This document shows, in pieces, positions 27,975 through 59,404 of a stretch of 64,000 nucleotides of DNA (positions are counted from its first letter, which is position 1; each line of letters opens with the position of its first letter). Origin of the DNA: Phoronis australis (Eukaryota; Animalia; Phoronida); contig NMRA01000258.1 of the NCBI GenBank assembly GCA_002633005.1, positions 124,001 through 188,000 on the forward strand, given 5' to 3'. The notes under the pieces were generated by a model, which saw nothing but the letters and a program-made list of their open reading frames with translations, searched no databases and was not told the origin of the DNA. Position numbers and translations under genes: made by a program.

Positions 27975-28254
27975 CTAGTATTCGAATTTGAGTGCTATTT
28001 TGAAATGAAATAAATTCCAAGACTGAGGACATATTAAATAAAAATTCCTGTTAATCGTTTTCCATACAGATCGAGTCATCATTAAATTTTGACCCCTAAT
28101 AGACCGGCAGCCCAGAGCACTTAGCATAGATGAACGAGGTACCAACATCTGACCACGGGAGCATTTAGGGTCCACCTCAGTATGTACAGAAATGTACGTC
28201 TGCCGTTGTCTGCTCTCTGGGAGTGACCCCTGGGTGCCTTACAAAGGGCCCAGA

Positions 28255-29290: not shown

Positions 29291-29669
29291 GGACTTTACA
29301 AAACTATGCTATGTCTAATAAAATTCTCTAGATGAGTGACTTTCCTTACTTTATAACGAACCCCTCCCCCAGGAATACCAGATTATAGAGACCCAACTAA
29401 CATGAATTACCTATTCTGACCGTAAATTCGTAACCTTGCATTGGACTAAATATTGACATCTAGAATGAATTTTATTTGTTGAGATCAGAAACACAAAGTA
29501 CACATTCTCAAATCACTTTTAACCTGTTTCAAATATTTTGATTCAGATCTTAAATAAGTTGGGTAGTAAGATTATTAGTTTCTACATATAAACATGAAGA
29601 TGAATTGTCAAGTAAATTCCGCCTTAGAAAAGTAGTTTTGTCTTACTAAAATATTTCTTTGACTATTTT

Positions 29670-31849: not shown

Positions 31850-33420
31850 GATTGTTTTTTGAAATTTGAAAATAAAAGAAAATGCTTTGATAGAAAAAAA
31901 ATAAAAATTTCAACGAACAAACCCTAAAAATACCTGGTGAGCAGATTGAATTCTGTTTCAGTAGCAGAGAACCACTTTCAATATTGCATGTACTGTTTAT
32001 GATGTTCCAGGTCTCTTTTTAACGCACGTTTATCTATTAAAATAGATAAACGTGCATTACGATTTATCGTTAATAGCGTCGCAGCACATCTATAACGCGT
32101 ACGATTTCAATTGGTCACATTTTCGATAGAACGTAACGCACGTGCTACCCTTAATAGCAAACTAACCCAGTGTCTGATGTGGCCGCGTAATCCGAGTTTC
32201 CGTAAACGCAAACCTCTCAAGTAACATTAGAGCTCATCTGTTCGTATTTTGTATAATCGGTGCTACGAAAGCGGGTGATTCAAAGAGTATCTAGTAATTG
32301 AAGCGTAGCTACTAATGGACTAGCATAGGCCTAATGCCGCCGGACTCATAAAAAATTGATAATACGAAACAATGTGCTGGAATTTAAAGTTGTTGACATC
32401 CAATAAATATTGATATAGTTCGATGAGGACATGATAAATAAAGAGAGCACCTTCATCGACTTCACCAGTCAGCTATACCTGCGCTACAGCTTTGTTCAGG
32501 AGAGCTATATCCCTGTTAAAGATGCTTTCATTTCTGGTCTTAATATCTATGCCACAGAACTTGGGTAAGTTTTCACAAAGAACCAACGTTAATGAGTAAT
32601 GCTCAGATTTTTTTATTTATTATGAAAGAAAGTAACAATATGTTTCGCCCATCCTTTTTCTAAACAAATGTTGAATTGAAATCTAATTAAGCAATAGTAA
32701 GTCGACCCATATAAGGCTGCTGCTAGAGACAAGCTCCGACCATTTCTGTTCATCCTCGCCCCATGCGGTTTCTTTTTGAGAAACCATCTGACATAATCCA
32801 TTCTACTAATAGATGACGTTGTACAGAATATCAGGTTGTAAAATGTGGATGAACCGTTAGCGAAATCTTTCTTGCTCATCAAATATTCTAAATGGCAATA
32901 CCTTTGCAATTAGTGGAAGTTATTGCCTCTAATTCATTCAGTTTCACCATGATGTTTTATAGTCACCGTTTGTTTGAACACATGTACATGTACAAATGCG
33001 ATTAGACATATTGTTCTAGCCAAACACAGTAATCCAACTTGTTTGTGTAGAGTCGGAAATCCTTACAAATTATGCTGCACGTTTTTGAGGCTCTTGCGTT
33101 GGCAAGTAGTGGAAGGTTTATATCCAAATCCTTTAAATTAAAAGTTTTTAAACAATTTGAAGTATTAATCGAATAATTCAAAATTGTTATTTGTATTTTT
33201 GTTCTTGCCGACGTTTCTTCGTCGGTCTGAGGATAACAATTATAAAGATAAAATATTTTAATCACTTATCTGCATGTATATTCATTTGTTTAAAAACAAT
33301 TCATACATTGATTGATATTTTTTAATTTTTTGCGTAGGATTAGATAAGAAAGACTCAAATTTAGAGTGTTCTTGGACTGGTAATTGCTTACCTAATGATT
33401 GACCAATATTTTAAAATGTG
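31850..33420 (+). repeat. Segmental duplication block, copy 1 (receptor 5' region, first coding exon, intron start)
   Basis: Colinear high similarity with 62425-63725. Confidence 0.92.
32522..32564 (+). CDS. Putative signal-peptide exon [14 protein letters not shown](G)
   Basis: ATG to G|GTAAGT, phase 1. The duplicate at 62842-62887 keeps ATG, frame (3-nt indel) and donor. Confidence 0.6.
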
Positions 33421-36400
33421 GTTTTTGAATGTGGTAAAATTGCTATCAGTATTGTTGTTTTCGTAATTAAAACAGTAACAATGATCCTAAAGGTAATGAT
33501 AATATCAATGACAATGAATGTGATAATGATAATAACAATAATAATAATAATAATAATAATAACATATTAACTACTATTCAATTGGAAGAACACAATGAAA
33601 CGTGAAAACTGGCAAATAACACAAGAAGAGATATTATCGGAAGAATACTCAAAATAAAAACACGTAAAGTCCTTCACACTGCCTTCCCTGATTCAATGTT
33701 GAACTTAACATTTTGCATTTTATATGACATCAAGTAAACGCACTACTACTACTGATGTTGTATGGAGTTTTTACAAACCTGTCGAAAATGAGCAGAAGGT
33801 GGGTTGGTCATACATCGTGTTCATCCCTAGAAAAGACAAAATTTTATCTCAAAATATATTCAACCAAATGTACCAAACCATCACTTCCATAAACTCTCTT
33901 AACAACGCAAAATGGTGGCTATTCCTCACCGACGCGACGTGCATGTTTTCTGTTTATTTTCCCACTGTTTCAAAAGCACGACTGAACTTTTATATGGGAG
34001 ATATGGTCTATTTTCCGAACATACAGCGTACTCTTGTTTACTATGAAAAGTTCCCGGTGACATTTTAACTTAACATAAGTAGCTTTTATTTGGAGTTGCT
34101 GTGATAGCTTCATCCCTCTTTAAATCGTCGTTCACGATTATAATACGACTGTATCAGAGGTATTGCAAAGGCAGACCCATTGCACATTTCATAATTTTAT
34201 TCATTAGGTGCGTCTTGTGTGAATAACGACTACAGGTGCAATGAATGGGCCACAGCTGGAGAATGCGACAAGAACCCTGACTGGATGCATCCTAACTGTG
34301 CTCTGGCTTGTGGAAAATGTAGTAAGCACAAAATACGATATGATGTTCCGAAGTTACCCCAATTTGAACAATCCTGTAGATTACATGATGCAGGCAACTG
34401 TTGGATCTTGCGCGTGGTCGCTGGTTTCAGTGGTACTTCTTCGAAATATTTTCACTTTTGCAAAGAAAAAACAACTACTGATTTTACTTGCTGTCAAACT
34501 AATTCTTCTATCAAATATAAATCAACTACCAATCAGTTTTGACGATTTTGAGATCGTTTGCAAGATCGCAACTTAAAAATGAACGTTCAACAACGCAGTT
34601 AAAAGTGATGGCTTTTTGTCTTCCCCACGCTTATCTTTAAAGCGACATCTACAGGTGTAAGTTAGTAACTCGAAGCCATTTCGTTCCAGCACACTACTAT
34701 GTGTTTCTCTAGTAAGTGAAGTTGACGTAGCAGTTAGAGTCAGCGTCATTTTTGCTCAACTTTTTTAATTTACATTACGAAATCTTCAGAATACAATAAA
34801 TATACATAGCCCAGAAAGCGCCAAGAGGCATTAGATCTGGATTAAAAATACAAAATAAGTCTATATACAATTATTTTACACAAATAAATAAATTAAAAAA
34901 ACTGATGTTAAGATTACAATGATAAAATTACGAATGTAAATAAATCATTTTCATACACATGTATACAATTTTATCCACTCACACAAAGAGATTTAATGTT
35001 ATAAAGAAATTCTGATACTATTTCGAATAAAACCTTATTTTATTTGGGTTGAATTCTTGACATCCATATAAAAAATTAATTTTGTTTTACAATTGCGGAA
35101 TTTCAGAATATTTTTGTAAACATTGGGGTTTTGTTCGAGTGTCTGAAAAAGCTGTACCCTCTGCTCCTCGCATACCTCACAAGCATAGAAGACATGAGGA
35201 TATGTCTGGGTGTCTCCACAGGAACACAGAGGCGAAATATTATTGAAATTATATCTAAATTTCTCGTTGCTCAGGAATAGACCGTATCTTGATCTGTATA
35301 GGGTTATTTCATGGTTGCGAGGAAGTTGGAATGATGTCAATGGGACTGGCAAGTCTTGAGTAGTGGTATGCATTTTAAAGTTATTTTTGAGAGTGTCGAT
35401 TAAAGTTCTTTCTTTAATTTTGAATGGTAAGGAATTCCAGTTGTCAATATAAGTTAATATCGTTGATCTCCTGAAGGCTTGGCTGGTGGAAGATGGAATA
35501 GTGTGCATATTACTTTGTCGCAGTCCTGGTCTCGTGTTTGGTCTTTTGTAGGGTTCAAAGAGGATTTTATTAGAGTAATTGTTTATGTTGGTTAAGGCTT
35601 TGAATGTATACATGGGCAGGTGGAGTTTACGACGGGTTGCTAGTTTGCTCCAGTGAAGACTATTTAGAACCTTGATTGTGTTGGACCCTTTGCATGCACC
35701 AGTTATGGCTAAAGCTGCTTGGTATTGTAGTCTTTCTAATTGGAGAAGTATGCCAGCGTTTGCCGATTGGAAGATTATGTCACAGTAATCTAGATGTGGA
35801 AGTACAAAGACTTGAACAGAGTTTCAAAATACATAGAGTTGAGATAACGAGAGATAATTCTAATTGGATTAATTAATATTTGTACTTTATGAACGAGTTC
35901 TCGACAATGAGGAGTAAATGTAAGTTTATAGTCTAGTAGTAAGCCAAGATGTTTGTGCGTGAACTTATTGGGAATAACTTTCCCATTGAGTGATAACTCC
36001 AGCGTTGGATTTGTTTGGAAATGAGTATTATTAGACTTGGAAAATATAAGATCAACAATTTTTCAGGTTTAAATTTCATCTTCCATTGGTAAGACCAGTC
36101 ATAGAGTTTGTTTAGGTCAGTTTGCAATTGCAAGGAGTCATGCGGATACTCTTTTAAAAATGGGTGGAAAATTGCACTGTCATCAGCATATAAGAATGTT
36201 TTAGAGTTTGTTGTGTCTGGAAGATCATTGATATACAGTAAAAACAGTAAGTGGCCTAGTACGCTACCCTATGGTACTCCAGCATTTACGAAACCTGGCG
36301 TTGATGAAGGTGATAAGACACCCTCAATTCGGACTTTGTAAGTTCGATATTCCAGATATGATTTTAAAAGTAAGAGGAGAGTGCCAGAGAAACCGTAAGA

Positions 36401-39400
36401 TTGTAATTTATGTAGAAGCAGCTCACGGGGAACGACATCAAAAGCTGACGTAAGGTCTAAAAATACATACGGATCTCACGTTGTACCCTTGCTCAAACTG
36501 GAGGTGGATGTCGTGTACAGTTTCTGTAAGTTGGGACACAGTGCTGTTACCAGGCATGAATCCAAAGGTGACGATGTATGGGGTTTTGTGAAGAGAGGTG
36601 GTCAAACATATGTTGGGAACTGATTTTTTCTAAAATTTTGGATAAGGTGTAAAATAGAGTTATGGTGCGATAGTTGGCAATGACTGTTTTGGAGTTATTT
36701 TTATGTATTGGTATTATAACGCCAAGCTTCTAGTTCGAAGGAAATTTTCCAGATTGTAGTATTTTGTTATATAATGTTGTCAGAGGAACTGTAAGATCTC
36801 TTGCTATTATCTTGATCATTTTATTGTTTATGAGAGTGGTACCGTCGTTTTGTTTTCGTCAATGTTTTTACTCAACTAAAGCGTATTGACTGCACATTTT
36901 GTGTTATCTGTTATAAAACATACAAAATCGCATGAACAGCATCCAAGACTACAATATGAAAGTATAAGAGAGACTGCAAAGACAGATCTTGGCCTGTTCT
37001 CTTACAAATGTTTAACATTCCACCTTTATTCACTAGATGCGTCTTGTTGGAATAACGACTACAGGTGCAATGAATGGGCCACCGCTGGAGAATGCGACAA
37101 GAACCCTGACTGGATGCATCCTAACTGTGCACTGGCTTGCGGAAAATGCAGTAAGCGCAAAATGACACGTAAAATGTAAATGATGTTTAAAGGTATGCAG
37201 TGCGTACTGTGTAGAAATGCAACACACTTGTATTACTGGTAGCATCAGATGACAAGTAAACTTGAAATCTACTGGTGCTCTGTTTGTCGTCGTGACAAAC
37301 TTGCCTAACTAAATGTTGATCTACTATGTACAAGATAAACACTGGGCTCTGTCAATCTTATCATCGTCCCATGTTACGTTATTGTGTGAAGCAAAATAAA
37401 TGATATTCATTTTGTAAACGTCTGAATTAATTGGCGTTTTGTGCAACCAGTTCTTATGGTTAGTTTATATCCATCGAGCATTTCCGTATGTTTTCGTTCT
37501 TGGAAACAAATTTTCTTCTTGTGTTGATTTGAAGCTCTTTGATACTAGAATTAGGTCCTGCTTTCATGTGACTGTTTTTTCAAGGGTTTTCCAAATAAAG
37601 TGGTTGACAGCTAGCATACAAAAAGTCCCCCAAAGTCTTAGATTCTAGGAGGAGCGTCTACGACTTAAAATTAGGTGGCTAAACTGTTCCAGATTATTTC
37701 TTCAACCAGCTTGCAAGCGTCGCAGGCCTTACTTTGCCTGGATGATATAATACAATTAGTTGTCAAACATGTACATGTTACCCCATCTTGCAGTATTATT
37801 GACCCCTTTTCAAATTGTAAAGCCATTGATTTCTAGTCATATTAAATCACAGCAGTTCGCTGAAGGTCCGTGCGGCAGAGACATTATGTTGACAGATACA
37901 CAGTCTAAAACAAACATCGTTCTCTTAATCATAGCATTGCTTACTTTGTGCTTCCTTGAATCGATATCACTGTTAGTAATCTAAATTAGTTTGTTGTAAT
38001 TTTGATTGACATACTCTTTAAAATGCTCTCTGTGTCGAAACAATTATCTTAGCGCGCAGATTTGTTTTAGCACAAAATGATAAAATCTACACACCATCTA
38101 GACTGAAAATTAAACACTCAAACCAAAGGGAAGGTGGGATGGAGGGAAGGAAGGGAGGGNNNNNAACAGTACAAAAACCAAACGAACAAATATGTACATC
38201 CATTCATTCACGCATGCACACCTCAGGAGAGACCATTCTCGTATATCGTATAAAGTAAACAACCTCTACATGGAGTTAACGTGAACAATGAAATTTCGCT
38301 GAGAAGCTGTCATATACAAAATTTTTATAAGCAATTAATTTTTCAGCATTACAGTGCTCATAAGTATATATAATAAACCTGTGAAAATTAGGTATATTTT
38401 TGTGACATCTCCCTTGTAGATGTACTATTTGGTTATTAGAAGCAAAATGTTAAATAGAAAATTATGAGTCTCATAAAGTCCGTAACAGGGGACTGTTGGG
38501 AAGCTGAATGCGACACTTTTGCATTAGCTTTCCAAATTCCTTCCATAAATCTTGTTCAAAGCGACATTCCCAAAAACGTGTGACAGCGTCTCTGGAGCTT
38601 TATAACAAAAGGAACTTGAATTAGAATCCCGAACACAGATTTTGACTAAAAAGGTATTTGTTGCAATAACCCTTTGTAGTATTCTAAATTGAAACCATCC
38701 AATGTTGGGGTCCTTTGTAATTTCATAAGGCAATGCGTATATTTTCTTCCAATTTAAACTATCCCCTAACTCTATTTCCATTTACAATCTGACTTAGGTT
38801 TCTTAACGTCATTAAAGACTGAACAAATATGTCTACAACTCTTCAAATCTTTCTGTAAGTGAGTAATTGCTAAAGGCAAGCAAGAAGAGTAGACATTAAC
38901 ACTTTTAAATTTGCTTTGAAATAGACTTTTTTGAAACCTTCTTAGAACGGAAAGAACACCATTATATTCTACAAAGTTGGTTTTTATATCGAACTCATTT
39001 TTCATGGTTCAAACTAACGAAATCACTATCAGAGGTATACATATCTCTAATAAATCTTAAGCCTTTTACAAACCAAGCCTTATAAAAACACTTGTGTCCC
39101 CGAACGCCAAGTTACTATTAAACCACAAAGATTGATTAAAAAAGTCCTCATTACTCGCAACAATTATTTTCTTGAAGAAAGATGTCATACTTCCAAATAC
39201 GTCGAGCCAGTAGAAATTACCAATTAGAGTTAACTTCGACTTAATAAAGTCATCTCCAAATGAAGCAAAATTCTTTAAGAACACGTAGAGTGAGTACAGC
39301 AATTCACCACTTTCAGACACAGGGCTTTCAAGATATCTACGGGCCATGGCGAGTTTTAAAGCTTTGCTGGAAGTATGCATATTAACCATTTGAATTCCAC

Positions 39401-42400
39401 CTTGATCAAATCCTAAACAGGCCGTGGTTCGTTTAATTTTATTGTTACGAGTCTGCCATAAAAATCTAAAAAATATCGTATTCAATTCACTCAAGACTTT
39501 TACTGGTGGATTTGGTAACATTGGCAACAAAAAATTAAGTTCAGAACTAGCTAATGTTTTCATTACAGTTACTCTACCAAACGGCGATCAATTTCGTCGA
39601 CTCCAACTTTTTAATAAAAACTTAATCTCAGTTATTCTTGAAGTGAAGTTCTTATACGTCATACTATCCAACTGAGTGTCAAAATCCACCCCCAAAAAAT
39701 CTAAAAGATTTTTTGTCCAAGACAGACTTTCTTTAGTAGGAATCATGTCATCATTATCAGTTTTACTTCCAAACCATATGACTTTTCCACATTCACTTGG
39801 AGACTGGAGACACTAGCAAACAATTGTGATACATTCAATGTGCTAGTCAATGACAAATTCGACCCTTCCAACGTAGTAGATGTGTCGTCCGCATATTGTG
39901 AAATCAAATATTCCTTATTTCCTGCAACTACACCAGGAATATTGTTATTGTTCTTGATTAAATACGCCCAAATCTCCACGCACAATATGAAGGGAGACAA
40001 AGGGTCACCTTGACTTCAGTCACGCGAAATATTGAACCAGGAAGATGGGTGACCATTTAGGACAACACAAGACTTAATATTACTGTAAAAGACTTTCACC
40101 CACCCTCTGATAGACCAACCAAAATTAATGAAAGATAAAGTTTTTTGAATAAAATTCCACGGCAATGAATCAAATGCAATCCAGGTTTGTTAGTTACCTG
40201 GGCATAAAACATTAAATCATTTAGCACGCGGATATTTTCGTTCATATTTCTTCCAGAAATGAAACCTGTATGGTCCTTACTGATTAGTTTTCCCAAAACG
40301 GATTTCAACCGCTCAGCCACAGCCGAAGAAGCCAATTCAATTTATATGTCACCTTTAGTAAGGCTATGGATCTCCAGTTTTTCAAATAATGTTTACTTTT
40401 ATCTTCTCTCTTAGAGATGCAGGTAATCACTCCCTCTTTCTGTGTTGATGATAACTGGCCAACTGCAAAAACCAGTATTAAGTGAGCGAACAACGAAATG
40501 TCCAATGTCAGCAGAATTTTTTTTTTAAAATTCCAATGAAAAACCATCAGAGCCTGAGCTCTTGTTGTTTCATTTTTTCCAAGCACTGTGTGACTTCTTC
40601 ATATGTAAGAAGACCTTCTAATTTTTTTTTCTGTCTCATTCAGTTTGGAGACACAAACCTTATCAAGAAGAGTCTCTAAAGCAGTATTGTAAGAATGTCT
40701 ATATTTGATTTGATTTTCATAAAAAGTTTTGGTTTTCTGAATAGCCTCTTCTTCACTATTGGTTTTAGTATTGTCATATTTTTACAAAAAGGCATAACCG
40801 TACTTGTGCAATGTCTATTTTCCAAAAGAAGAAAATATTTGGAAGGTTTTTCACCCTCTTCAATCTATCTTGCTCTCGACCTACATGTAATCATAAGACC
40901 TCTTAACTTATTTTAACTTAGCAAGGCAAGTTGATTATTTTTTTGTTACAGTAAATCCCTATCAAGGCTTAGACTTTTTTCCAACAAACGTATTTCTTCG
41001 ATAAGTTGCTGTTCAGCTCTATCACTTTTTCTTTTTAAGTAAGTACAGTGCCAAAGGAAATTGTTTTGCCGCGAATCTCCATCAACAACGTTTCAAGAAA
41101 AAGTTGATCATTTATAGACAATTGTAAATCTGAATTACTTGTACTATCAACTGTCTGAATATTGTCCGTCATATACTGTTGTTAAACTAATTTAACAGTA
41201 TCCTTGACTACAGCAATATACTCAGAGTTTTTTAGGAGAGAGTTATTAAACTTCCAAAATGATTTCCTCCTCCTGGAACCATCACTTTAAAAAAAATCGT
41301 TACCATTAAATGATCGGACCGCTAACCAAATTCTCTTCTGGAGTCTTCAATATCGGCTGAAAGCTTTTCAGAAATTAGAAAAAATCTAGTCTGAATCGTT
41401 TACTTCCAGCTCCCCAAGGGTATTCTTTACTATTGGAGTTTAGTTCCCGCCACGCATCAGTAATAGACAATTCTGTAGAAATATCCGTCAACTTAATCCG
41501 TGACTTTGGGTTACTAACCTGTCGATAATTAAGCGTGTCCTTAGACTGATCGAGAACAAGATTAAAGAAGAATGCCACCCGATTTAATTAGTATTTTTTG
41601 CCGACCCTACCAGGTGTTAGGGGAATCTTTATGTACATTTACATTATTCAAATAATGATTGTCAATGTACAACTTAGTGCCGTGACGGTGTGGCCAAAGC
41701 AAAACCTGAGTCGCGGGCGCCGACGAGTAAGTAGATTTGCAGTTTTGTGGCTAATTCACCAACATAATCACGTGCATTTTACAGCTTGGGCTCACTAGTA
41801 TAGTATTTTCTTGATTGGAAGTTTAGTTTCCAACTTTGGCGGGTTTATGTTCATGATGTCTGATCGGCTTCCGAGCCACTGGCCAGGATAAGGAATCAGT
41901 CCGGCCGCGACGGGCCTGATCGGGTTCCGAACCACTGGCCAGGATAAACAGCGTTTAGTGTTNCAGGATAAACAGCGTTTTGTGTTTTTAGAACTCAAAA
42001 AAATCACGAGTCTAAACACAGATCTAGGTTCTCCTGTCTGTATCTCACTGAAAAAATACTTCAAATTTATCTCCGAACAGACCCCAAACTCCTGCTTTGT
42101 AGGCTACGGTGTGTCTAAACACCAATAAATCCGTAACAGCGAAATAAAACAACGCGTTTTCATAAGAACTCGGTGTATTTGTAAGGGTTTCACATCGAAG
42201 TTTGATGATTTATTGGTGTTAAACGATGAATTCAAGCAATAAGCTGACACCAGTAACCCCGTGTTGTGAACTGCTGAACAGACTGCGTGTGAAACCAATT
42301 ACGTCATTGGATAATTTCAATACCTCCGTCTGCCGTCAGGTAACACAACCGTTCGTGCCCTTATGGAGTAGAACTACTCGATCTAAGAAGTTTGTTTAAT

Positions 42401-45400: not shown

Positions 45401-48400
45401 ATGGTCTGTCTGAGACCTGAGCCTTATTGTTTATGCACGATCTTATTTCAGCTGGTATCAAATGATGCTGAAAAAGGAACCCTACCCATTTCAGCTGGCA
45501 ACACGTGACTTTATTTTTGAAAATATGGTCAAATTTGAAAATACCGTATGACCGCATCGATCTTTAAATAAAAACCAATTATACTGTTTTGATGAGTCTA
45601 ACTTTTTACATTGTAATCACTGTAATGGGTTTCAGTACAGAGAGGCCTTTGTGACGAAGGGCAGCGTACATGTGAGTCGTAAAAATTTTGAGGGCTGCTG
45701 TGTGGTTGCTTCATAAGTCTAGTTACTTGCGAGCAGGAAAGCGAGAGCGCACAAAATCACACGAGTTCGCGTTCACTAGTATAACAGCGGCCGTTGAAGT
45801 GTTTGGTCCGTGAAACTGGAATGGTAAATCTTGATAGAAAATTCGTCCCATGAGCGAAATTCTCTTACCGTAAGTGCCTCGTGAGTTTCTTGTGGCGGAA
45901 ACTACCTATGGTTTACGTGGCAAAGTAAAACATTGTTGGCACGGCATGGTGTGTATGTTGATGCCGACGTCGACGAGGTGATATCTTCAAGGCTCAGTTG
46001 AGTGGGTCTGGTAAGTAGAGTATTATTAGTCCCTACATTTGCAGAGCTGCATTTCATCCTGTTAAGTTAGCTAAAAACGAAAATCGAATTACACTTTTTA
46101 TCCCTCATAAAATATGTCTTACCGTGGTCGCTGTAGAATTCCTTTTCTGTTACCAGTAACAACATTGAATCCATCAGCGACTCAAAAAAATCGCTTTAAA
46201 GATTATTAAGGCTGCCAAGGTCTAAAATTGCGATTTCGAAAATTGGGCAGGCAGGCAATGCCTATGACTTGAGTTGGGAAAATCAATGGAATCATATCAC
46301 GTAAGGAATCTTGTGAGATCGATTTCATAAGAGTAGCAGGGTTAGTTTGATTTCCGTTTCTAGCAAGCGTAGTAGGGCGAATGCACTTTAACGTATGAGT
46401 TAAGGCCGCGACATTCGCGGGTGTAACCAGATAAAATCACGTTTTTGCTTGTCACGTATGGCGACACAACGTCAAGACGCAGCATCCAGCCAAACTCGGA
46501 TTCAAATTCCGTCTTTTTCTCGCACCCTGAATCCTGGGTCTCATTTGTAACATGCTTAAACTATTTCTTTCTAGGTGTAAAAGGTTGTGATCAGATGGAG
46601 TTCCTTCAAATATTTTCTGTTTCCAAACGTGAAATATCAGGTCACACCATCAGTATTAACTCAATGTCCAGTGGATGGCAGTGTGCAGTGCGGTGCTTCA
46701 ATGATTCTACTTGCAAATCTGCTGATTTCACAAAACTCGATGAACACACTGGAATTTGTCACTTTAAAAACATATCCTGGGACACTACCAACGGAGACAT
46801 CAGGAATCTACAAACTTCGTTCCATGCCACTCATCACATGGAGATGAGATGTTTCAGTGAGTAACGCTGATAGTTATTTTCATCCTGACCTTTACGACGA
46901 AATGTTGCTTTCAAGAACATCCTTAAGTAAATTTTTAACTGCGAAAATTCCGGGATGTTTAAGAAGCAGTAGATTAAGAGCTTTTATTCCGTTTCCCTGG
47001 TAACATAGTTAATGTGATTTTCTTTCCATCCATATTTTCGTGTTTTTCCTACACCAAGTGTACCTTTCAATTTCAAATTTTAACTACCATAAGAATCATT
47101 AAAATGAATACAACTCCTAATAGTGGTATACTTGGTCTTGATTCTAAAGTGAGGCCGGACCATTTTGCTTCCTGTTGTTATCCCGAGTGTTCTCAACTAG
47201 AGCATTTGAGCACTGAATCGCTAATCACTTGGTGTTACAGTAAATATAAAATCATTTACACTTTACCAAAAACTCTCGTTTATCGCCAAACTCTGTTCTT
47301 GGATCATATTGAGTTAAACCCATTTCCTTGACACATAACATTTGTACAAGATGGCCAGTTGGGTGTCCACAATCGCCGTTAACTTACTAATAAGCTGTTT
47401 TAGGTTCTATAAATTAAGCATTAGACTTGTATTCCCCAGTTTACATTAAATGAAGAATGATCTTGTGTAGTAAACATAATATCCCCTCAAGCAAAATGAT
47501 GGCGCAAAATTGACCGATAGCTATTCAAACTGAGCTACAGTACTCAGACCAGCACGGCAAGGAATTTTACTACACGTTTTGTCTATGACATGCAGGCCCA
47601 TACGACTGCAAGACGAGCGAGAAGGGAGAAGACTACAGCGGCACCATACGGTCTACACTTTCGGGTATTAGTTGCCAGCGGTGGGACTCACAAAGTCCAC
47701 ATACACATGCAGCGACGCATCTCGGACCGGAGGAAAACTTTTGTCGAAACGTAACTCCAGATGTAGACCCGTATCCATGGTGTTATACCGTTGACGAGAA
47801 CAAACGCTACGAGATCTGTGACGTTCCATTTTGCCCTGCACATGAAGGTGAAAACCATTCGTTCTGCTAATTCTTTTCATTATCGACGTCGTTCGCATAA
47901 GGTCTTCGCTATGAAATTACTTAGAATTCTTGAGATTTTTTTTCAACGGACCACCTTGTACTTTGGAAGCATTGTCAGTGTAAGTGTGACTTTCAGATGC
48001 GAACAAAGCAGTCTGCAATAAGTTAAACTACGTAATGTTTGGTTTGATTTGGTTTCAGAAACGTTCCTTTGTCCTCCTGGATGGTACGGCATTACATCGA
48101 AATGTTACACGTTCTTTAACAAAGAGCATAACATGTATCGTTATGATGACGTTGTCGACTACTGTAATCAGAGAAATGGATATGTCCTTACGATGAAGAC
48201 ACTCGAGAAGTCGCTGGAAGTGGCGACACTTCTCACGAGGTGATGTGGGAGCTTTTTTGAAGAGATGTTTTCACTTTACTTATTTGTCAAAACGAAAATC
48301 TTGAACTAGGCCCCTCAATAAAGTACGTTTGAAACCTTTAGGTACCATGTCAGAGACGACTTTCAGTTTATTGGTAAGTAAAAAGTGTTAACAAGCCATC

Positions 48401-51400
48401 ACACTTAACAGGATTTGCTATTTCAACAGAAACAAATCTAAACCATTTGTTAATTGAAGTAAAATGACAAAATCAAGTAATGAGATTTTCTCTTATTGCA
48501 TCCGTCCCCACCTAGTTGTCTATGAGGAAATTGTTAGAAAACGGTCGCCGTGGGCGCATTTTCTCTCCCCGTCCACAAATGAATTCATCCAAAGGACAGA
48601 TACATGTGGCGGGATAAAGGTACCAAGAATAGATTTTTATGTTTTGCAATAGCTGATTTTCGAAATAACCGCGCCATATTCAAATTCACTATCCTGTCAG
48701 ACAGCGGCCAAGTCTTAGGTGGAGAGACGTTAAGCGCCGTTCACAAATCCCATGTAATACGGACTGGAGTTTACAACCTGCTGGTATCAACGGCATTTTA
48801 ACATATTTCCTCCTATCATAATACAGGCAAATTTTCATGGATATGCGGTGGGACGTATTTTAGGTATACAGTAAAAGGCCAATCTCTTGAAACGTCCATG
48901 GATGAAGGACACCGTATGCCCTGTGCATTCATAATTGCAAAGAAGAATACGCGGCTGTAGTCATTGGCTGCGATTCTTGAAAAGGAAAAATTTCGATCCC
49001 TGTCGGTGTCAAGACTCTGAAATATTGAATAAGTGAACTTGACGTAATCAAAAAATGGAAGAAGTTGACATTGGGATTTTAACACTGATTTGCTATCAAT
49101 ATGAGAAGGCTTAAGACAATTTAAATTGCGGCACCATATGATTATATAGTAGCCAATTTCATTACACGGCCGAATCTGAGTTGGGATCAACCTGGAGTCG
49201 CTTTCTTGCTCTCATTACTCAGGAGAGCGCCACTATGAAAAGTTCTCAATTGATTGTAGTTTCTACATAAGCAGCAGCGTGTTTAAGAAAAAGAAGTCTT
49301 GGGATAAGTTGGCCTGTGTGAACCTGTCTTAAGTGTTTCCAAATTACTTTACCGGAATATTCTATTACGCATGCGCTTGCTTGTAACTTCGTGGTTCCAT
49401 TAGCAGGCATGTTGCTCCGGGTTGACAATCCATAGCTGTGAGGAAGTTATATCAATGTGATTTACATTTTCTACGGATGCTGTAAGTTAATATTTAAAGA
49501 CTAAATTACCAAAACTGATGCCATATGACTTTTTCGAGTCAGCCGCTTTCTCATTCCCATTTATATTGTAAGAAAACATTAAATTGCCCAGAAAAAGTGG
49601 TCTCAAAATGCATCATCCATAATAGATCTGTTTGTCGGGACTCAGAGTCACGCACAAAGGTCCATTTCCGGTGGCAAAACCACTTCGCGACTTATCACTT
49701 ATACAATTTTTTCATGGTAACAAAGTATTTGTTGGTGCAGGAGTCAACTTAAACGGTTCCGTTTTGAATAATGCCTAAGTTTTGTTTATACAAACCATTT
49801 TGTGGCTTTTAACGACCGCGCATTGTTTGTATGCTATATTTAGGTATGCCAGTATATTGCCACCTCGTGACACCTTTTGGCTTGGACTGACAGATGAAGA
49901 TGCATCTGATGCAAGGCAGTACACTTGGTCTGACGGCTCGTGGCTGGCTAGTTTCGCGCTCTGGGATGACTTTCATCCTTCGAGCGATGAACTAAGACAC
50001 GTCGTAATAAAGGTCGGAACTGACTTCAAATGGCGCAGTAATGCTGGTGAAGATCAGCACGGTATCATTTGTGAAAAAGATGCTATCGGTAAGCCAAGAG
50101 ATTTATATTTTAAATAAGTTCATTTCGCCTCGTTTTGGCCTAAGATACGACATTAAACGGTGCCTTGGGTTCATTATACACCCGTGACGCAGTGTGCTTG
50201 CATATGGTCACAAGAAAGGGAAGGGAAACTTTTAAAGCGGCTATAAGGCCCCTTTCCTGTAAAAAATAACTTATTTTGTTTAAAACACTTATCGATAGAA
50301 AATTGGTGTCGATATCTCCATTAGATACAAGCGACGTGAAATCTGTGCTTTTGGAAAGTTATTGCTTGGGGACTAGACTGTAAAAGCGGACTCGTCGTGG
50401 AGTGTCATGTAATGCGTTGAACATGTTCTCGAGCAATGGCGAAATGACATCTCTATAAGATCCAAAATCATTTTCCATCCCAGTAAGGAACTAGTTGAAA
50501 CAAATTATATAACGGCACTACTTTTTGGACGCAATGGAGATTCACTGCATTTCTTGTTTTGATACGAATGGAGCACGATCGCTACTAAAAGTGTTGGAAC
50601 CTCACATCTAGTTTAGTGTTGGAAAATCTCCGCTAGTATAGCGTTGGGATACCACCGCTGGTATTAAAGCGTTCGAGCACCACCGCTAGTATAGTGTTGA
50701 GACACTACCGCTGGTATAATGTTGAAAAACCATCGCTAGTATAGTGTTGGAGCACAACCGATAGTATTGTGTGTTGGAGCACAACCGACAGTATTATGTG
50801 TTGGAGCACAACCGTTGATTAAGTGTTAAAATACATGTAAGTAATCTTTGTAGTGGCTTTTACTGATCTTATGTTCCCCCGTTTTATTGTAAGTTCTCCC
50901 CGGATGTTATGGTCAGTGGTCGTATGGCTCCATGGTAATCTATCACAACGTGACGCAGCAACAGTGTCGTTGGACGTGTGAACAACAAGGCTACTTGTTT
51001 GCCGGACTTCAGGACGAGGAGGATTGCCGCTGTACAAATAGCCTGGGTGACTATAACTCGAGGAACAGGTCGGAATGTAGCACGTGTCAAGGACAATTCT
51101 GCTACTCTTGGATTTTGCTTGCTAAAGGTTTGGCAACGCCACTTTACATTCCTGTGACCCGATTGTAACATTCATTCTTCTAAGCATACATATTCATGAT
51201 AACGTTTCTCAAGGCAAGTTCAACATGTCAATCAAGATAAAAATTTCAGGTACTCAGGGCGCGTGAACAAGTAAATACAATAATTGTCCGCCATCTTTGT
51301 CCAACAAAGAGAACCTGCCAACAAAAAAGTAAAGACGGTTTTAGGATATCCTTGGATAGAGTGAATAAAGAAAATACATATCACTGATAAAAAGTTGTCT

Positions 51401-54400
51401 CAGAGCACACGATCAACTGAATACACACCTTCATAAACAAACACAAAGTGAAAAATCTCCATTAAAACATCCCACACATGTTTTAAACTAATGTGGACCA
51501 TATGCGGGTGACAGCGCACGCGACCTACGGAAACATGACTTCATCAACACAGAATACATTTTCCATTGGATTACCCTGTAAATGTAACAACCGTTCCATT
51601 TTACTTGTTTGTTACATTTTACGTTGGTAAGCCTCTCCTAAAATATAACAAGTTGTTACATTTTACGTAATTGTTACACTTTACGTCGAATTTACATGCA
51701 AGAAATGTACCATTGTGGGCTCGGACAAGAATTGACCCATTTATCAAGTAACTTTGGGTAAAAATTCACATTTTCACCAAGTTCCCTTGAATAAATTCAC
51801 AAAAGGCACCCTTTTATATAGTATTTTATCTAAAATTGCTGCATTTCGGGGAGTACTTTTTGCTTTGAGAAAAACCTTTTAGGCGGCACTTTTCGTATAC
51901 CTCTTTTATCAGAATACCATCCGGGTTGTCACGGCATGAATTTCGCTAACTATTATCATTATTAGTAGTAGTATCACTAGAGCGAGTTTTGTTACAAACA
52001 TATTTAAAGGGGTTGCTGGGTTCAACCTTAACGATATTGTGAAAAACGTCTTGATAGCTGTGGATGCAGAGTAGGTCTACTTTTTGGAAACGAGGAGGTT
52101 GAGACAAAAAAATCTTGTTTAGACGTGCCCCAATTTTATGTGGAAATGACCCGTATATTCTTAAAAGAACACAGTCAGGGATTTAAATTAGGTTTCGTTG
52201 AAAGTGGGTTGTGCGGAACAAAAACAGCTATCAAATTGGGTTCCGAAATTGAATTCTCCGTGAAAAATTTGTGGTCGATTTTCCCAAAGAAGTGCGATAA
52301 ATATTATCCTAAATACAATTTTTTGTTTCTGCTGTGCTTACCAAGGGAGGCCTGTATACTGTAATGCCGGATAGACACTTGGTTTATGACCTGTGAGCGC
52401 CAACAAAAGATTGCAAGAACGCTTGAACAATAGCAAACCTGTTAGCTGATACTGGAAACTCCTTTCGTCTGGAGTTGAAAATGTGGAGGTATATTTTTGA
52501 CTACACCAAGAAACCATTCATTTTTAAAGCAACAGATTGCACGTGGGGACGCATTTGGCAATTCGAGCTGGCACATTTGACAAAATCTTATTCAAATAAT
52601 CCAAGAACAAAAGAAGCCATTAAGTGTTTGAACCGTTTTCCTCAGTGTAATAAACACCATGCAAAATCACGAAACATGACGTCGCTTTCGTGAAATGTAA
52701 CAATGTTACTTAACTTGTAAAATTACAGAAGATATAACACCATGTTACACTTTAGGAGAGGCCTAGCAAATTAAACTGTAACAATGAAGTAAAATTTCAC
52801 ATTTCACAGCGTATCAATGCTTACATGTTATGTCACTTTCAGACGACATGTTTGACAGCAGTGAATCGACTACACCAAGTTCCGCAAATGTCATGTTAAC
52901 TACTTTACCAGCGACTTTGGACATTGCTTCAAATGCAACAACAGTAGCGACCACCAGATTTTCAACAAGCTCATTGGAAACTACAGAAAGTCCAATGGAC
53001 AATCAAACGACCTTATCAGTAACTTTGGAAACGCCCTCCACATCTTTAACAACTTCACTTGAAACAACAGAAAGGTCCATCAGCAATCACACGACGAGAC
53101 CTCAAGCTACACAAACAACTGTTACGTATACGAACGGCTTACCACAAACAACTGGAAGTGCTACAAACAATCAATCGATAAGACTAGAGACTGTAGACAC
53201 GACTACTACATTTTCGATTAGTTCACCTGAACATCCTATCACCCACCAAACGACGAGCCAGGAGGCTGCAATATCGACCACTATATTTTCGACTAGTTCA
53301 CCGAAAATAACTGAACGTTCTATCGCCAATCAAACAGCGGTAAGAGAAACTTCAGAAACGACGGTCACATTTTGGAATAGTTCACCAAAAACAAATGAAC
53401 GCCCTACCATGAACCAAACGTCGAAAGAGGAAAATCAAAGAGCGACCACATTTTCAAGTGAAAGTCCCAATAGCAATCATACGACGAGACCTCAAACTGC
53501 AGAAAGGACCACTACGTATTCGACTCACTTACCACAAACAACTGGAAGTTCCACCACCAGACAACCGACAAGAACAGAGACTGTAGCTACGACCACCACA
53601 TTTTCGACTAATTCACCAAAGAATTCTATCACCAACCAGAGGACGAGCCAGAACAATGCGGCTGCCACCACTACATTTTCGATTAGTTCATCTGAAACAG
53701 CTAAACGTTCGACCATCAGTGAAACAGCCACAACTGACACGAGCTCCACGTTCTCGACTAGTTCATGGGAAACAGCAGAAAACCCGAACGCTAGTCAACT
53801 GACATGGACAAAGACTATTGAAACAACCACATCATTTTCGACAAATTCACCTAAATCGACAGAACGTCGTAACACCAATGGGCAAACAAAAACATTTTCC
53901 ATGTCAATGAGCTCGGGAACAGTGGTAAGATCTGAATTGGCCACGGCTGTGACAACATCTGAGAACAAGACACAAACGACAGAAATTCCGACATCAGCAC
54001 ATGATCAGATGACTAAATCTGCAGGAACCGCTCTCGTGACCTCTACAACAACTTTACCTCCTTATGAAGTTACCCATGAGCCATGCACGCGACAAAGTAA
54101 GTTGAGTGCGAGGCTGGGACCTGGCGCTCTTATGTTTTGTTTAACACTATCCCCATGCAATTCACAATCTTTGTCGTCCGCATTATTAAAGAGCGAACTG
54201 TCAAACTTGAGTCGAATTTTCGAACCAGTGTCACACTGAGTGTGCAATAGTTTGAAGAGAAAAGGCCAAAAGCCAGATAGCATTTTGATATCACCTTCAG
54301 AGAATTTTATTTAATCTGATTCGGGCTTACTCTACTTTTGATCCGTTACCTCTGTGATATAGGTACCCAGAACTAAACACCGTAGGACAGTTCTGACAAA

Positions 54401-56216
54401 AATTGTGTTCATTTCGCTTGATTTTAAAAGCACACTCGCTTACATTCACCAAATTAGAACACAAAATAAGTTTTGTCAGTTGAAAGATCTCACTAAAATA
54501 TAAACATTTCGCAACTCACAGCCCTGTTTGTATTTGCTTTATCTCATTATTAATGTTTTATCTTTTTAAAGTGAGCGAGGAATCCGGTGAAACCTGATTA
54601 CATATGGCGGTAATTGAGTGAGTGCTCATACTGCATGAGGCAGCTGTCACTTACTATGCTCGCCATTTTAGGTAGTGTAGTACTAGAATAAAAAAATCAT
54701 AAAAAATTCAGGTAATTTTGAAAATATTTGGTGTTGTATTGAATGCGTATTATTTTTTAATAAACCAAATCCGTTTTACGAAGTTTTAAATTATAATGAA
54801 GCAGAAAGACTACATTTAAAGGATACCCAACCTCGTTTTGGCACCGAATGTTTCACATGAAGCCTGTGCTTCTCAGTACCAACTGTTTCTTAAATTTACG
54901 TGGTCAACATATTGATCTGCTCCAGTTGAACCTCTTCACGAGCAACGCCTTACATCTCAGTTCCTTAACAAAACTACAACTGAAGATGATCACTTCAAGA
55001 CTACGCATGTGACATGTGACGTGAACAGTACGACCAACGTGCATATGACTGTTGTGTTCGGTTGTTCAGTCGCTGGAGCTGACAAAGGCTTCATCTTGTG
55101 GGATATTTCCTGTACTGGTAAGTATACAGCTCTGCAAAACAGGTTGTTTTGGTTCGCTAATGTTGGTTTTTTGTTATGCACTTTATCTGAAGGTTTGGGT
55201 GTTGAACAACTGGTGAAATCTCTGAAGAGATTAATGGAAAGTTGCGCACCAGTCATTCTGCCATTGGACAAATAAGATGGATGTTTTAGCATTGCCGCGT
55301 TTTGTCCTGAAGTCTGCACTTTTCGAGGGGATTCTCGTTTTGAAAGGATTGAAAGTCATGCTTTTGACACTTTTTGTAACAAACAGCCCCATTGGGGAAT
55401 TGAGGTACATGTATTCTATTAGAAATGAGGTCAATTTTGAGTGGGTGTTACTTATAACTGTTTTCTTTGTTAGACAATGCGACGTAGGTCACATTAATGC
55501 CCGACTCATCTCAATCATTTGCAGCTCGTCCCAGGAGAAGGAGGCCTCCAAAAGTAACCGGACCTGTGTTCCCCCGACCTAAACGAGCTCCATACGAAGC
55601 TCCGGCGGCTGAAGTAGTTGGCGGTTTTCAGTTGGTGATACTACTCGCCATTCTTGGATTTATCGTTTTTCTGGACCTTGTTACCATTAGTAAGAACTTG
55701 CACTTCATGCGAAGAAATCTTCGATGGACGAAAAGAGAGCGCTCTCGCCCTAGGAACAACAAACGATGGGTGAAAAATGCGAAGAATTTGCAGACCATGC
55801 GAAAGACTCTTCGACGCTTGAAGGTCATAAAAGCTCGCTCAAAGCTCAACAACATTCAAACTAAGCAAAAGACTCTTAAGCGGTTAAAAGATTTGAAAGC
55901 CCATGCAAAACCCAGCGAACAACCACCTTTGAAATGCAATACAAAACAAATTAGCCATAGACGCTTAGACCCTGTGACACCTGTGGGAAAATGTAGACAA
56001 CACCCTTTAAAACTCAATAGCTGGATGGATCACGTTCCTTTTAATCTTAGGCTAAACATAAACAGTAGACAAGCACGAAGTCGTAACGCTGGAGCAGAAG
56101 AGAAAGCTCTAGGCAAGCGTTTAGTGGTGTTGTATCCTTGGCCATCGCTGACAACTGCCGCTGAGTTGTCTTCGTCTCACAAGCACAAGAGACAGAAGAA
56201 GATTTATGTTGCTTAG
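32522..56216 (+). CDS. Predicted mosaic type-I membrane protein (about 1247 aa): SP-ShK-ShK-TSP1-like-PAN-Kringle-CTL-WSC-mucin-TM
   Basis: Exons 32522-32564, 34208-34321, 37037-37150, 45125-45265, 46575-46856, 47596-47847, 48059-48239, 49844-50088, 50894-51127, 52843-54096, 54926-55117 and 55525-56216 total 3744 nt in one frame with GT-AG junctions. The PAN-to-TM part is well supported; joining the ShK and TSP1-like exons is inference. Confidence 0.6.
33520..33563. repeat. (AAT)n microsatellite
   Basis: Direct reading. Confidence 0.9.
34208..34321 (+). CDS. ShK toxin-like domain exon 1 (phase 1-1)
   Basis: [35 protein letters not shown] has the six-Cys ShKT pattern; TTAG acceptor and GTAAG donor. 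Confidence 0.9.
34780..36840 (-). mobile_element. Decayed non-LTR retrotransposon (CR1/L2-like reverse transcriptase)
   Basis: Minus strand reads [48 protein letters not shown] and C-terminal [16 protein letters not shown], with stops and frameshifts. Confidence 0.88.
37037..37150 (+). CDS. ShK toxin-like domain exon 2 (phase 1-1)
   Basis: [35 protein letters not shown]; 107/114 nt identical to ShK exon 1. Confidence 0.9.
38160..38164. other. Assembly gap (Ns); a single N also occurs at 41963
   Basis: N bases in the sequence. Confidence 0.95.
38170..41590 (-). mobile_element. Decayed Tx1/L1-clade LINE ORF2 (APE endonuclease end, RT, C-terminal zinc knuckle)
   Basis: Fragments [48 protein letters not shown] and [27 protein letters not shown]; many frameshifts. 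Confidence 0.9.
43290..44570 (-). mobile_element. Decayed Penelope-like element (RT remnant)
   Basis: [42 protein letters not shown]-like [10 protein letters not shown] and [21 protein letters not shown] are typical of PLE reverse transcriptases. Confidence 0.75.
45125..45265 (+). CDS. Cys-rich exon, thrombospondin-type-1-like (phase 1-1)
   Basis: [42 protein letters not shown] shows a W..CS.C..RTR...C pattern; ACAG acceptor and a weak GTGAAT donor. Confidence 0.5.
45331..45430. repeat. Exact 50-bp tandem duplication
   Basis: AAACAGCATAATTGGTTATTATGGTCTGTCTGAGACCTGAGCCTTATTGT occurs twice. Confidence 0.9.
46575..46856 (+). CDS. PAN/Apple domain exon (phase 1-1)
   Basis: [44 protein letters not shown] has the C-x3-C-x5-C...C PAN pattern. 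Confidence 0.8.
47596..47847 (+). CDS. Kringle domain exon (phase 1-1); absent from the supplied ORF track
   Basis: [35 protein letters not shown]...[35 protein letters not shown] is a canonical kringle. Confidence 0.95.
48059..50088 (+). CDS. C-type lectin-like domain in two exons (48059-48239 and 49844-50088)
   Basis: [15 protein letters not shown]...[10 protein letters not shown] / FWLGLTD...YTWSDGS...W...IICEK, joined by a matching phase-2 intron. Confidence 0.88.
50590..50815. repeat. About 28-bp degenerate minisatellite (AGTGTTGGAGCACAACCGCTAGTAT)
   Basis: About 8 degenerate copies upstream of the WSC exon. Confidence 0.75.
50894..51127 (+). CDS. WSC domain exon (phase 1-1)
   Basis: GCY...[29 protein letters not shown] matches the WSC pattern T...C...C...GY.FAGLQ....C.C. 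Confidence 0.85.
51575..52800. mobile_element. MITE-like element with imperfect terminal inverted repeats built of TGTAACA/TGTTACA motifs
   Basis: ATTTTACTTGTTTGTTACATTTTACGTTGGTAAGCCTCTCCTAAAATATAACA at about 51598 matches the reverse complement of 52742-52797. A related sequence lies at 61860-62245 in inverted orientation. Confidence 0.6.
52843..54096 (+). CDS. Thr/Ser-rich mucin-like stalk exon (418 codons, phase 1-1)
   Basis: Long open frame with repeated TTTFSTSSPxxxERSIxNQT units and many NxT/S sequons; TTTCAG acceptor and GTAAGT donor. Confidence 0.88.
54926..55117 (+). CDS. Membrane-proximal Cys-containing exon (phase 1-1)
   Basis: CCAG acceptor and GTAAGT donor; 64 open codons including [21 protein letters not shown]. 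Confidence 0.65.
55525..56216 (+). CDS. Terminal exon: transmembrane helix and basic cytoplasmic tail
   Basis: TTTGCAG phase-1 acceptor; [25 protein letters not shown] is a hydrophobic helix followed by a K/R-rich tail. Confidence 0.8.
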
Positions 56217-59200: not shown

Positions 59201-59404
59201 CAATGGGGAAAAAGAGAATCTAAAATAATTTCAGCTCACATCAGACAATGTTGGGAAAAGGATAGCGACCGATTTCAGTTGGCCTTTTCTATTTGAAAGT
59301 TTGGACAACTAAACACTAGCGCATGACCACTTCAATTTTAAAAAAATCACAGACTACAACCATATGCTATTTTTTACATAAAAGTCATGAATTCACCAGT
59401 TCTG

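What the first reader, a model, noticed from the sequence alone, without database searches (positions are those of the whole stretch)
32522..56216. Exon-shuffled mosaic receptor: ShK x2 + TSP1-like + PAN + Kringle + C-type lectin + WSC on a mucin stalk
Seen: twelve + strand exons join into a 3744-nt frame, and every inter-domain intron is phase 1, the classic signature of exon shuffling. Known: PAN-Kringle is the N-terminal pairing of plasminogen/HGF, Kringle with WSC occurs in Kremen, CTL/WSC/PAN are glycan- or protein-binding modules, and ShKT occurs in channel-blocking toxins and in proteases. No protease domain is present here. I do not recognise this combined architecture. Inference: it may be a lineage-specific pattern-recognition or adhesion receptor that holds several ligand-binding modules on a stalk of about 420 aa. 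I found no stop-bearing exon after the ShK exons and no signal exon before PAN, so each half supplies what the other lacks.
Basis: partly seen in the sequence, partly recalled or inferred. Interest (0 to 1): 0.85.

Follow-up and report, generated by a model that had tools for sequence, protein, structure and literature searches.

The report
Multi-module receptor on conserved membrane anchor
An invertebrate gene stacks several common binding modules (PAN, kringle, lectin-like, WSC, and likely two ShK modules) on a predicted sugar-coated stalk above a membrane anchor shared with mussel and ribbon-worm proteins, so it is likely one more shuffled cell-surface binding protein: a combination I did not find described, but built in a well-known way.

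Summary
The exons are real: all GT-AG, one open frame, Pfam hits for ShK x2, PAN, Kringle and WSC, a weak C-type lectin hit, a 43% Ser/Thr stalk and one membrane helix. I get 3768 nt for twelve exons (reader: 3744), plus a probable thirteenth 42-nt exon (1269 aa). 'TSP1-like' is not confirmed. Sparse RNA reads (about 25, sense strand) cover PAN to the membrane exon; no splice junction was listed and the 5' exons had essentially no reads, so the ShK-to-PAN join across an 8-kb, gap-containing intron is unproven (about 60%). The claim that ShK2 has no stop of its own is wrong: read-through stops after 9 codons, with AATAAA downstream. New here: the membrane anchor is shared with Mytilus lectin-mucin proteins and a Tubulanus sushi protein; the kringle keeps most lysine-binding residues of plasminogen kringle 1; the lectin-like domain lacks the calcium/sugar site; the ShK modules lack a Lys-Tyr pair. 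Best reading: a shuffled adhesion/recognition receptor that likely binds protein ligands. Phase-1 shuffling is the norm for such modules, so interest is modest.

The parts
32522..32564 (+). Probable first coding exon, short signal-peptide-like stretch (14 codons, phase-1 donor)
   Evidence: Second most hydrophobic of 17 ATG-to-phase-1-donor candidates on the + strand, the first being its own duplicate at 62842; CpG o/e 1.5 in 32001-32500; no RNA depth
33338..33379 (+).
   Evidence: Only symmetric candidate in intron 1; open with intact splice sites in the duplicate near 63645, but exon identity (93%) is no higher than intron identity (90%)
34208..34321 (+). ShKT module 1 (6 Cys)
   Evidence: Pfam PF01549 E 2e-8; nearest PDB 2mcr, 2k72
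37037..37150 (+). ShKT module 2, recent duplicate of module 1
   Evidence: PF01549 E 5e-7; 107 of 114 nt identical, 4 of 5 changed full codons synonymous
37151..45124 (+). 7,974-nt interval: the unproven linking intron, with retroelement fragments and two assembly gaps
   Evidence: Ns at 38160-38164 and 41963; zf-RVT and RVT_1 fragments on the - strand; one weak signal-like candidate at 37769-37865
45125..45289 (+). Six-cysteine module of unknown family (TSP1-like only by eye)
   Evidence: Open phase 1-1 exon; no Pfam, NCBIfam or PDB sequence hit; no sense RNA depth
46575..46856 (+). PAN/apple module (6 Cys)
   Evidence: PF00024 E 4.5e-5; sense reads in X1
47596..47847 (+). Kringle (6 Cys) keeping D-x-D, W, Y and R-Y of the plasminogen kringle 1 lysine-binding site
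   Evidence: PF00051 E 1.9e-20; alignment to 4a5t; sense reads in X1, X2
48059..48239 (+). C-type lectin-like domain, first half (phase 1-2)
   Evidence: UL45 lectin-like hit E 1e-4; sense reads in X2
49844..50088 (+). C-type lectin-like domain, second half (phase 2-1); EPN position reads HPS, WND position reads WRS, inner Cys pair absent
   Evidence: PF00059 E 5e-4; alignment to MRC2/Endo180 5ao5; sense reads in X1
50894..51127 (+). WSC domain (8 Cys)
   Evidence: PF01822 E 1.6e-8; Cys count; sense reads in X1
52843..54096 (+). Mucin-like stalk, 418 codons, 43% Ser+Thr, internal repeat 53070-53338 / 53460-53728
   Evidence: sense reads in X1, X2
54926..55117 (+). Small membrane-proximal module with 3 Cys, predicted all-beta, family not identified
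   Evidence: No Pfam or NCBIfam hit; single-sequence model pLDDT 66, four strands
55525..56216 (+). Last coding exon: conserved juxtamembrane + transmembrane anchor (about 55566-55724, helix about 55632-55688), then a 174-aa basic tail and stop
   Evidence: Hydropathy; anchor homologues in Mytilus and Tubulanus; tail 27% K+R, 5% D+E with a 22-aa tandem repeat at 55782-55913, 12 of 22 identical
62436..63723 (+). Duplicate of the gene's 5' end (signal exon 62842-62887, 42-nt exon near 63645-63686); runs to the window's edge
   Evidence: 86% identity to 32295-33416; in-frame 3-nt insertion in the signal exon

Best explanation
The locus holds in-frame phase-1 exons for PAN, kringle, lectin-like, WSC, mucin and membrane-anchor modules, and it likely makes one type I cell-surface protein of about 1,270 residues headed by two ShK modules, predicted to hold protein-binding modules away from the membrane for adhesion or recognition. 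Shown: exons, frame, domain identities, anchor homology, weak sense transcription from PAN to the last exon. Inferred: the signal-ShK-to-PAN join (about 60%); O-glycosylation makes the stalk an extended spacer; the kringle binds exposed lysines of a protein ligand as plasminogen kringle 1 does; PAN, WSC and the lectin-like domain add binding surfaces without the canonical calcium/sugar site; the conserved anchor and basic tail tie the receptor to a membrane or cortical partner. The ectodomain was built by class 1-1 exon shuffling onto an older anchor that other lineages use under different ectodomains.
For: Frame, splice sites and phases; Pfam. The signal exon and its duplicate are the two most hydrophobic of 17 candidates, and only one weak candidate locus lies in the 9.3 kb before PAN. 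ShK2 keeps the same GTAAGC donor as ShK1. A predicted amphioxus receptor, P0083, also starts with ShK followed by lectin and kringles (a gene model, not shown by RNA). About 25 sense reads on 3,042 exon nt in runs X1 and X2, none in the exon-free bin 48646-49286. Anchor: 4 hits among 1.84 billion representatives, E 2e-8 to 2e-5, named as Mytilus lectin-stalk proteins and a Tubulanus sushi protein; 14 invariant columns in 5 sequences. Kringle residues match Asp55, Asp57 and Arg71 named in PMC8618066. Lectin motif loss.
Against: No exon-exon joint listed in either lay (6 of 6 joints shown, 15 of 28). No sense depth on the signal or six-Cys exon, and at most 2 reads that could be ShK; about 3 were expected, chance of none 0.04-0.20. 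ShK2 can end on its own. The link crosses two N gaps. In X2 about 301 nt of sense reads fall in 46268-46722, more than two reads can fit into the 148 exon nt there, so one fragment may reach upstream of the PAN acceptor. The signal peptide is short and no predictor was run. The kringle lacks the Arg34/Phe36 stretch. Run X3 shows no sense depth in the exon bins from PAN to WSC or in the last two exons. No function was tested; no full-length orthologue was found.
Confidence: 0.5

Rival explanations
1. Two genes: a small secreted two-ShK protein (about 113 aa, ending by read-through after ShK2) and a separate PAN-kringle-lectin-WSC-mucin receptor whose first exon lies in the 8-kb interval, in a gap, or just before PAN.
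For: Stop 9 codons after ShK2 and two AATAAA; N gaps; reads on the 3' half but essentially none on the 5' half; one X2 fragment possibly upstream of the PAN acceptor; weak signal-like candidate at 37769-37865; documented false fusions in lancelet models (PMC4967905); multi-ShKT peptides exist (PMC5793123).
Against: No strong signal exon found before the six-Cys or PAN exon (the scan covers first exons of 12-40 codons only); ShK2 donor is intact; read counts are too low to mean much; short exons are hard to lay reads on.
Confidence: 0.3
2. One transcription unit with two products: intronic polyadenylation after ShK2 gives a secreted ShK pair, and splicing on gives the full receptor, possibly skipping the symmetric ShK or six-Cys exons.
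For: Both a donor and a read-through stop with poly(A) signals sit at ShK2; all these exons are 1-1 and skippable in frame.
Against: No read shows either product; AATAAA is common in 35% GC DNA.
Confidence: 0.15
3. The receptor is a Wsc1-like mechanosensor: WSC grips the matrix, the Ser/Thr stalk acts as a spring, the tail signals.
For: An 8-Cys WSC domain sits directly on the stalk above one helix, as in yeast Wsc1, described as a nanospring (PMC9024836 passages).
Against: The Mytilus and Tubulanus anchor relatives have no WSC hit; a further module lies between stalk and membrane; the same layout fits any stalked receptor.
Confidence: 0.08
4. A classical calcium-dependent lectin pattern-recognition receptor for microbial sugars.
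For: Lectin-fold, WSC and PAN modules; fungal WSC proteins bind glucan; clustered single-pass snail proteins affect parasite resistance (PMC7494358); the locus is duplicated.
Against: EPN/QPD, WND and the inner disulfide are missing; no immune expression data; glycan binding by WSC or PAN remains open.
Confidence: 0.12

Closest known systems
Unnamed lophotrochozoan anchor family: Mytilus coruscus CAC5400389 ('MRC'), M. californianus XP_052062816, Tubulanus polymorphus XP_074657347
   Same: Homologous juxtamembrane and transmembrane segment, 39-48% identical over 63 residues; Mytilus members have lectin domain + Ser/Thr stalk + anchor + basic tail
   Different: Those carry one lectin domain or three sushi repeats; none of the 8 profile hits has a PAN, kringle, WSC or ShK entry; their tails are short, here 174 aa
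CTLD group 14 (thrombomodulin, CD93, CD248, CLEC14A)
   Same: Lectin-like domain, mucin-like stalk, single pass, adhesion roles, some ligands bound without calcium or sugar (PMC6852297 passages)
   Different: No EGF repeats, no confirmed sushi, lectin domain internal with 4 Cys rather than N-terminal with 8; no sequence link tested
Plasminogen / HGF family
   Same: Adjacent PAN then kringle; kringle 1 lysine-site residues largely kept
   Different: One kringle, no protease domain, membrane-anchored; PAN+kringle also occurs in an oyster model with a sushi between them (P0103), so the pairing is likely independent
Kremen 1/2
   Same: Type I protein with kringle and WSC
   Different: Kremen is kringle-WSC-CUB; here a lectin-like domain separates them, CUB is absent, WSC match to Kremen only E about 0.8
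Yeast Wsc1 cell-wall sensor
   Same: 8-Cys WSC above the membrane helix on a Ser/Thr stalk (stalk recalled)
   Different: Five further module types N-terminal to WSC; animal; no evidence of mechanosensing
Branchiostoma belcheri model P0083 (ShK-lectin-kringle-LDLa-7TM)
   Same: ShK at the N-terminus with lectin and kringle in one predicted receptor
   Different: Seven-pass GPCR; no PAN, WSC or single-pass anchor; itself an unverified, partial model

Membership tests
Class 1-1 exon-shuffled modular proteins | Modules flanked by phase-1 introns | tested here: met
   11 of 12 introns phase 1 in the 13-exon model, the exception inside one domain; chance about 5e-5 at equal phases, but expected for such modules
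Unnamed Mytilus/Tubulanus anchor family | Conserved EAP...G / LDL.TI...N-R juxtamembrane and transmembrane segment | tested here: met
Plasminogen/HGF | PAN directly before kringle | tested here: met
Plasminogen/HGF | Several kringles and a C-terminal trypsin-like domain, secreted | tested here: not met
   One kringle in the window, no protease hit in any exon, membrane helix
Lysine-binding kringle | Asp55, Asp57, Arg71 with aromatic lining (Trp62, Tyr72 recalled) | tested here: met
   Identical to plasminogen kringle 1 at these columns
Lysine-binding kringle | Second cationic residue Arg34 and Phe36 | tested here: not met
   Aligned to a gap
Kremen | Kringle-WSC-CUB in series | tested here: not met
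   Lectin-like exons between kringle and WSC; no CUB hit
Calcium-dependent C-type lectin | EPN or QPD, WND, inner disulfide (motifs recalled; seen in the aligned MRC2 domain) | tested here: not met
   HPS, WRS, and no inner Cys pair; 4 Cys in all
CTLD group 14 | N-terminal 8-Cys CTLD, sushi, EGF repeats | tested here: not met
   against the description
CTLD group 14 | Mucin-like stalk and single pass | tested here: met
ShKT domain | Six-Cys framework | tested here: met
   PF01549 above cut-off twice
ShK-type potassium-channel blockers | Lys-Tyr dyad | tested here: not met
   The K-Y of 2mcr aligns with D-W here; the anemone toxin itself was not among the hits
Thrombospondin type 1 repeat (exon 45125-45289) | Profile match, W..W and CS..C motifs | tested here: inconclusive
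   One Trp and a CS.C-like motif; no Pfam hit; shuffle p about 0.04-0.06
Sushi/CCP (exon 54926-55117) | Four Cys and an invariant Trp | tested here: inconclusive
   Three Cys and a Trp, a fourth Cys at the end of the stalk exon; best of three sushi comparisons 44 of 2000 shuffles, others random
Wsc1-type mechanosensor | Force sensing through the stalk | not testable with these tools
   Layout only
Single gene (ShK joined to PAN) | Spliced reads across 37150>45125>46575 | tested here: inconclusive
   None listed; depth about 1x

The most novel reading that the evidence does not exclude
The conserved transmembrane segment is an undescribed lophotrochozoan receptor anchor with its own partner, onto which lineages plug different binding cassettes; this gene is its most elaborate member, a single protein headed by an ShK pair and carrying an independently assembled PAN-kringle unit that captures lysine-bearing ligands at the cell surface as plasminogen does in vertebrates.
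Probability: 0.2. Interest if true: 0.55.

Novelty: new variant of a known kind. Interest (0 to 1): 0.3.

Why it matters
The domain string alone is one more product of phase-1 exon shuffling, which is routine for extracellular modules. Two points could matter. The membrane anchor is conserved between this animal, mussels and a ribbon worm while the ectodomains differ completely, and it has no Pfam or NCBIfam model, so it may mark an unnamed receptor family and a handle for finding its signalling partner. And an invertebrate surface kringle with most of the plasminogen lysine site gives a cheap binding test on where that chemistry was used outside vertebrate fibrinolysis.

Tried and rejected
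No whole genome is held, so paralogues outside the window were not counted. Run search: no RNA holder listed; three RNA runs and one contig set were offered by species label. Word-index search with the whole last exon found nothing; HMMER with its first 80 residues did. Kringle search: 103 hits of 120 candidates, best local identities 37-58%, none listing PAN+kringle+lectin+WSC; one lists ShK. Six-Cys exon: model pLDDT 58, no fold match at Z 2 or more. Membrane-proximal module: best Z 3.6, generic beta sandwiches, no Foldseek match at E 0.001; neither excludes any family. A TSP1 profile could not be built (motif found 0 segments). PAN exon: no meaningful PDB sequence hit. Atlas, run with the Mytilus homologue, gave mollusc-rich unnamed and Lectin_C clusters, leads only. 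Conservation of the 5' exons in the duplicate as proof of coding was rejected: intron 90%, exons 93%. No inverted repeats of note around the ShK exons. Phase compatibility as proof of the join was rejected. Paper searches listed no title describing this architecture; the library lacks most subscription journals and I read no supplements, where domain tables of invertebrate genomes could hold it. No SignalP, TMHMM or CDART is available; hydropathy and Pfam stood in. The spliced protein was not searched or folded whole, only exon by exon. No complex prediction was run.
Full report
Question. I tested the exons, the domain calls, the single-gene join, the relatives and the likely mechanism. No genome is held; the animal is unnamed. 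Anchor homologues (below) and an earlier unchecked note on this genome (e1-10581417) suggest a marine lophotrochozoan; that is inference.

Exons. A 42-nt phase 1-1 exon at 33338-33379 is the only such candidate found in intron 1 and extends the model to 3810 nt, 1269 aa. Eleven of twelve introns are phase 1; the exception splits the lectin-like domain. Pfam confirms ShK twice, PAN, Kringle and WSC above cut-off and Lectin_C just below; the six-Cys exon, stalk, membrane-proximal exon and last exon have no family hit. Cysteine counts are complete for ShK (6, 6), PAN (6), kringle (6) and WSC (8). The stalk is 43% Ser+Thr and there is one membrane helix. 'TSP1-like' stays unproven.

One gene or two. 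For: the signal exon and its duplicate at 62842 are the two most hydrophobic of 17 ATG-to-phase-1-donor candidates on the + strand; the 7,974-nt and 1,285-nt introns before PAN hold one weak candidate locus; ShK2 keeps its donor. An amphioxus model starts with ShK before lectin and kringles. Against: ShK2 read through stops after 9 codons with AATAAA 245 and 444 nt on; the long intron has two N gaps and retroelement debris; my scan misses first exons longer than 40 codons; phase match carries no weight because nearly all shuffled extracellular modules are class 1-1 (PMC8001218, passages); and false fusions of neighbours are documented in lancelet models (PMC4967905, abstract, introduction and section 12).

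RNA. Three raw RNA runs (about 18% of each read) and one contig set were laid on 32100-51400 and 44800-64000. Orientation was calibrated on the neighbouring + strand gene, whose reads lie on first-mate minus. In X1 and X2 about 25 sense reads fall on bins holding PAN to the last exon (depth about 1.2 on 3,042 exon nt; bin 52492-53132 left out because a short repeat swamps it), with none in the exon-free bin 48646-49286; X3 and X4 add nothing. The signal exon, its duplicate and the six-Cys exon show no sense depth; the ShK1 bin is explained by a short repeat, and at most 2 reads fitted two places, as ShK reads would. About 3 reads were expected on the 5' modules; the chance of none is 0.04-0.20. 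No exon joint reached the listing threshold of 3 reads (6 of 6 joints shown; 15 of 28). One X2 fragment may reach upstream of the PAN acceptor; it could be nascent RNA, a repeat or an alternative start. So the 3' half is weakly transcribed and the join is open; I put one gene at about 60%.

Relatives. The kringle search gave 103 hits of 120 candidates, none with this architecture. The first 80 residues of the last exon found 4 proteins among 1.84 billion: a Tubulanus sushi protein, a Mytilus lectin-stalk protein and two unnamed fragments. Their alignment has 14 invariant columns, including EA, G, DL.TI and N.R around the helix; a profile search returned 8 proteins of 5,934 candidates, all Mytilus-like or the Tubulanus one. 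The family is therefore small in these searches and rests on two outside lineages. It has no Pfam or NCBIfam model. The same anchor under three different ectodomains is the most useful new fact. An unchecked note on another gene of this genome (e1-10581356) describes a similar anchor-and-cassette theme in a type II protein, and e1-10594279 another mosaic receptor; neither was tested and neither is support.

Module chemistry. The kringle matches plasminogen kringle 1 at D-x-D, W, Y and R-Y, but not at the Arg34/Phe36 stretch; Asp55, Asp57, Arg71 and Arg34 are named as the lysine site in PMC8618066 (passages). Lysine binding is thus predicted, not shown. The lectin-like domain has HPS and WRS where the aligned MRC2 domain has EPN and WND, and lacks the inner Cys pair, so canonical calcium-dependent sugar binding is unlikely. 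The ShK modules resemble protease-borne ShKT domains (2mcr, 2k72) and have D-W where 2mcr has K-Y; ShKT domains occur in thousands of non-toxin proteins and the dyad matters for channel block (PMC5793123, passages). WSC is itself a PAN/apple fold used for protein and carbohydrate binding (PMC9024836, passages). The tail is 174 aa, 27% K+R, with a 22-aa tandem repeat and no Yxx-hydrophobic motif.

Mechanism. Most likely a stalked, single-pass binding protein that works like CTLD group 14 receptors (PMC6852297, passages): an O-glycosylated spacer lifts several protein-binding modules above the glycocalyx, the kringle engages lysine-bearing ligands, and the conserved anchor with its basic tail links to a membrane or cortical partner. 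Each functional step is inferred. An immune role like the snail single-pass clusters (PMC7494358, passages) is possible but has no support beyond local duplication.

Novelty. It is not a member of the plasminogen/HGF, Kremen or group 14 families: each fails a defining feature. Five paper searches (listings only, plus two irrelevant passages of PMC4581086) showed no description of this architecture, and the scan's own index had none. Unique strings of class 1-1 modules are, however, expected in marine invertebrates, as the kringle hit list itself shows. Verdict: new variant of a known kind, join unproven, interest 0.3.

Noticed in passing
window 26580-27975 (+) and 21809-23005 (-): Two divergent two-exon genes for secreted proteins: signal-like start, a helical stretch, then a fibrinogen/COLFI-like domain (weak hits); 68% alike in DNA. 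The + strand one or a close relative is well expressed in X1 and X2: reads laid at 59453-59783 have loose ends matching 27662 onward.
   Followed up: partly
window 59406-59846 and 62436-63723: Tandem segmental duplicate of 27638-28088 (truncated exon fragment) and 31857-33416; between them lie inverted copies of the repeat at 51572-52419 instead of the 28.1-31.8 kb segment.
   Followed up: partly
window about 1200-21300 (+): Multi-exon DCDC1-like doublecortin gene, CpG-poor compared with the mosaic gene, which suggests a methylated gene body against an unmethylated, tissue-restricted neighbour.
   Followed up: no
window 55782-55913: Two tandem 22-residue basic repeats in the tail, each with an [IL]Q...K pattern that recalls IQ-like calmodulin sites (recalled, untested).
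   Followed up: partly
P0104 residues 394-455 and 475-531: The Tubulanus protein carries two copies of the anchor in tandem, either a two-pass protein or a mis-joined pair of alternative last exons.
   Followed up: no
window about 30250-31760 (-): Exon-like stretches with donor-like ends and low CpG on the minus strand, head to head with the signal exon; no clear reading frame.
   Followed up: partly
window 35038-36870, 38500-41600: Decayed LINE-type retroelements on the - strand inside the ShK introns; repeats at 41560-42550 and 56340-57150 attract hundreds of RNA reads from elsewhere.
   Followed up: partly
window 28258-29294: Tandem array of about 300-nt units, 75-80% alike.
   Followed up: no
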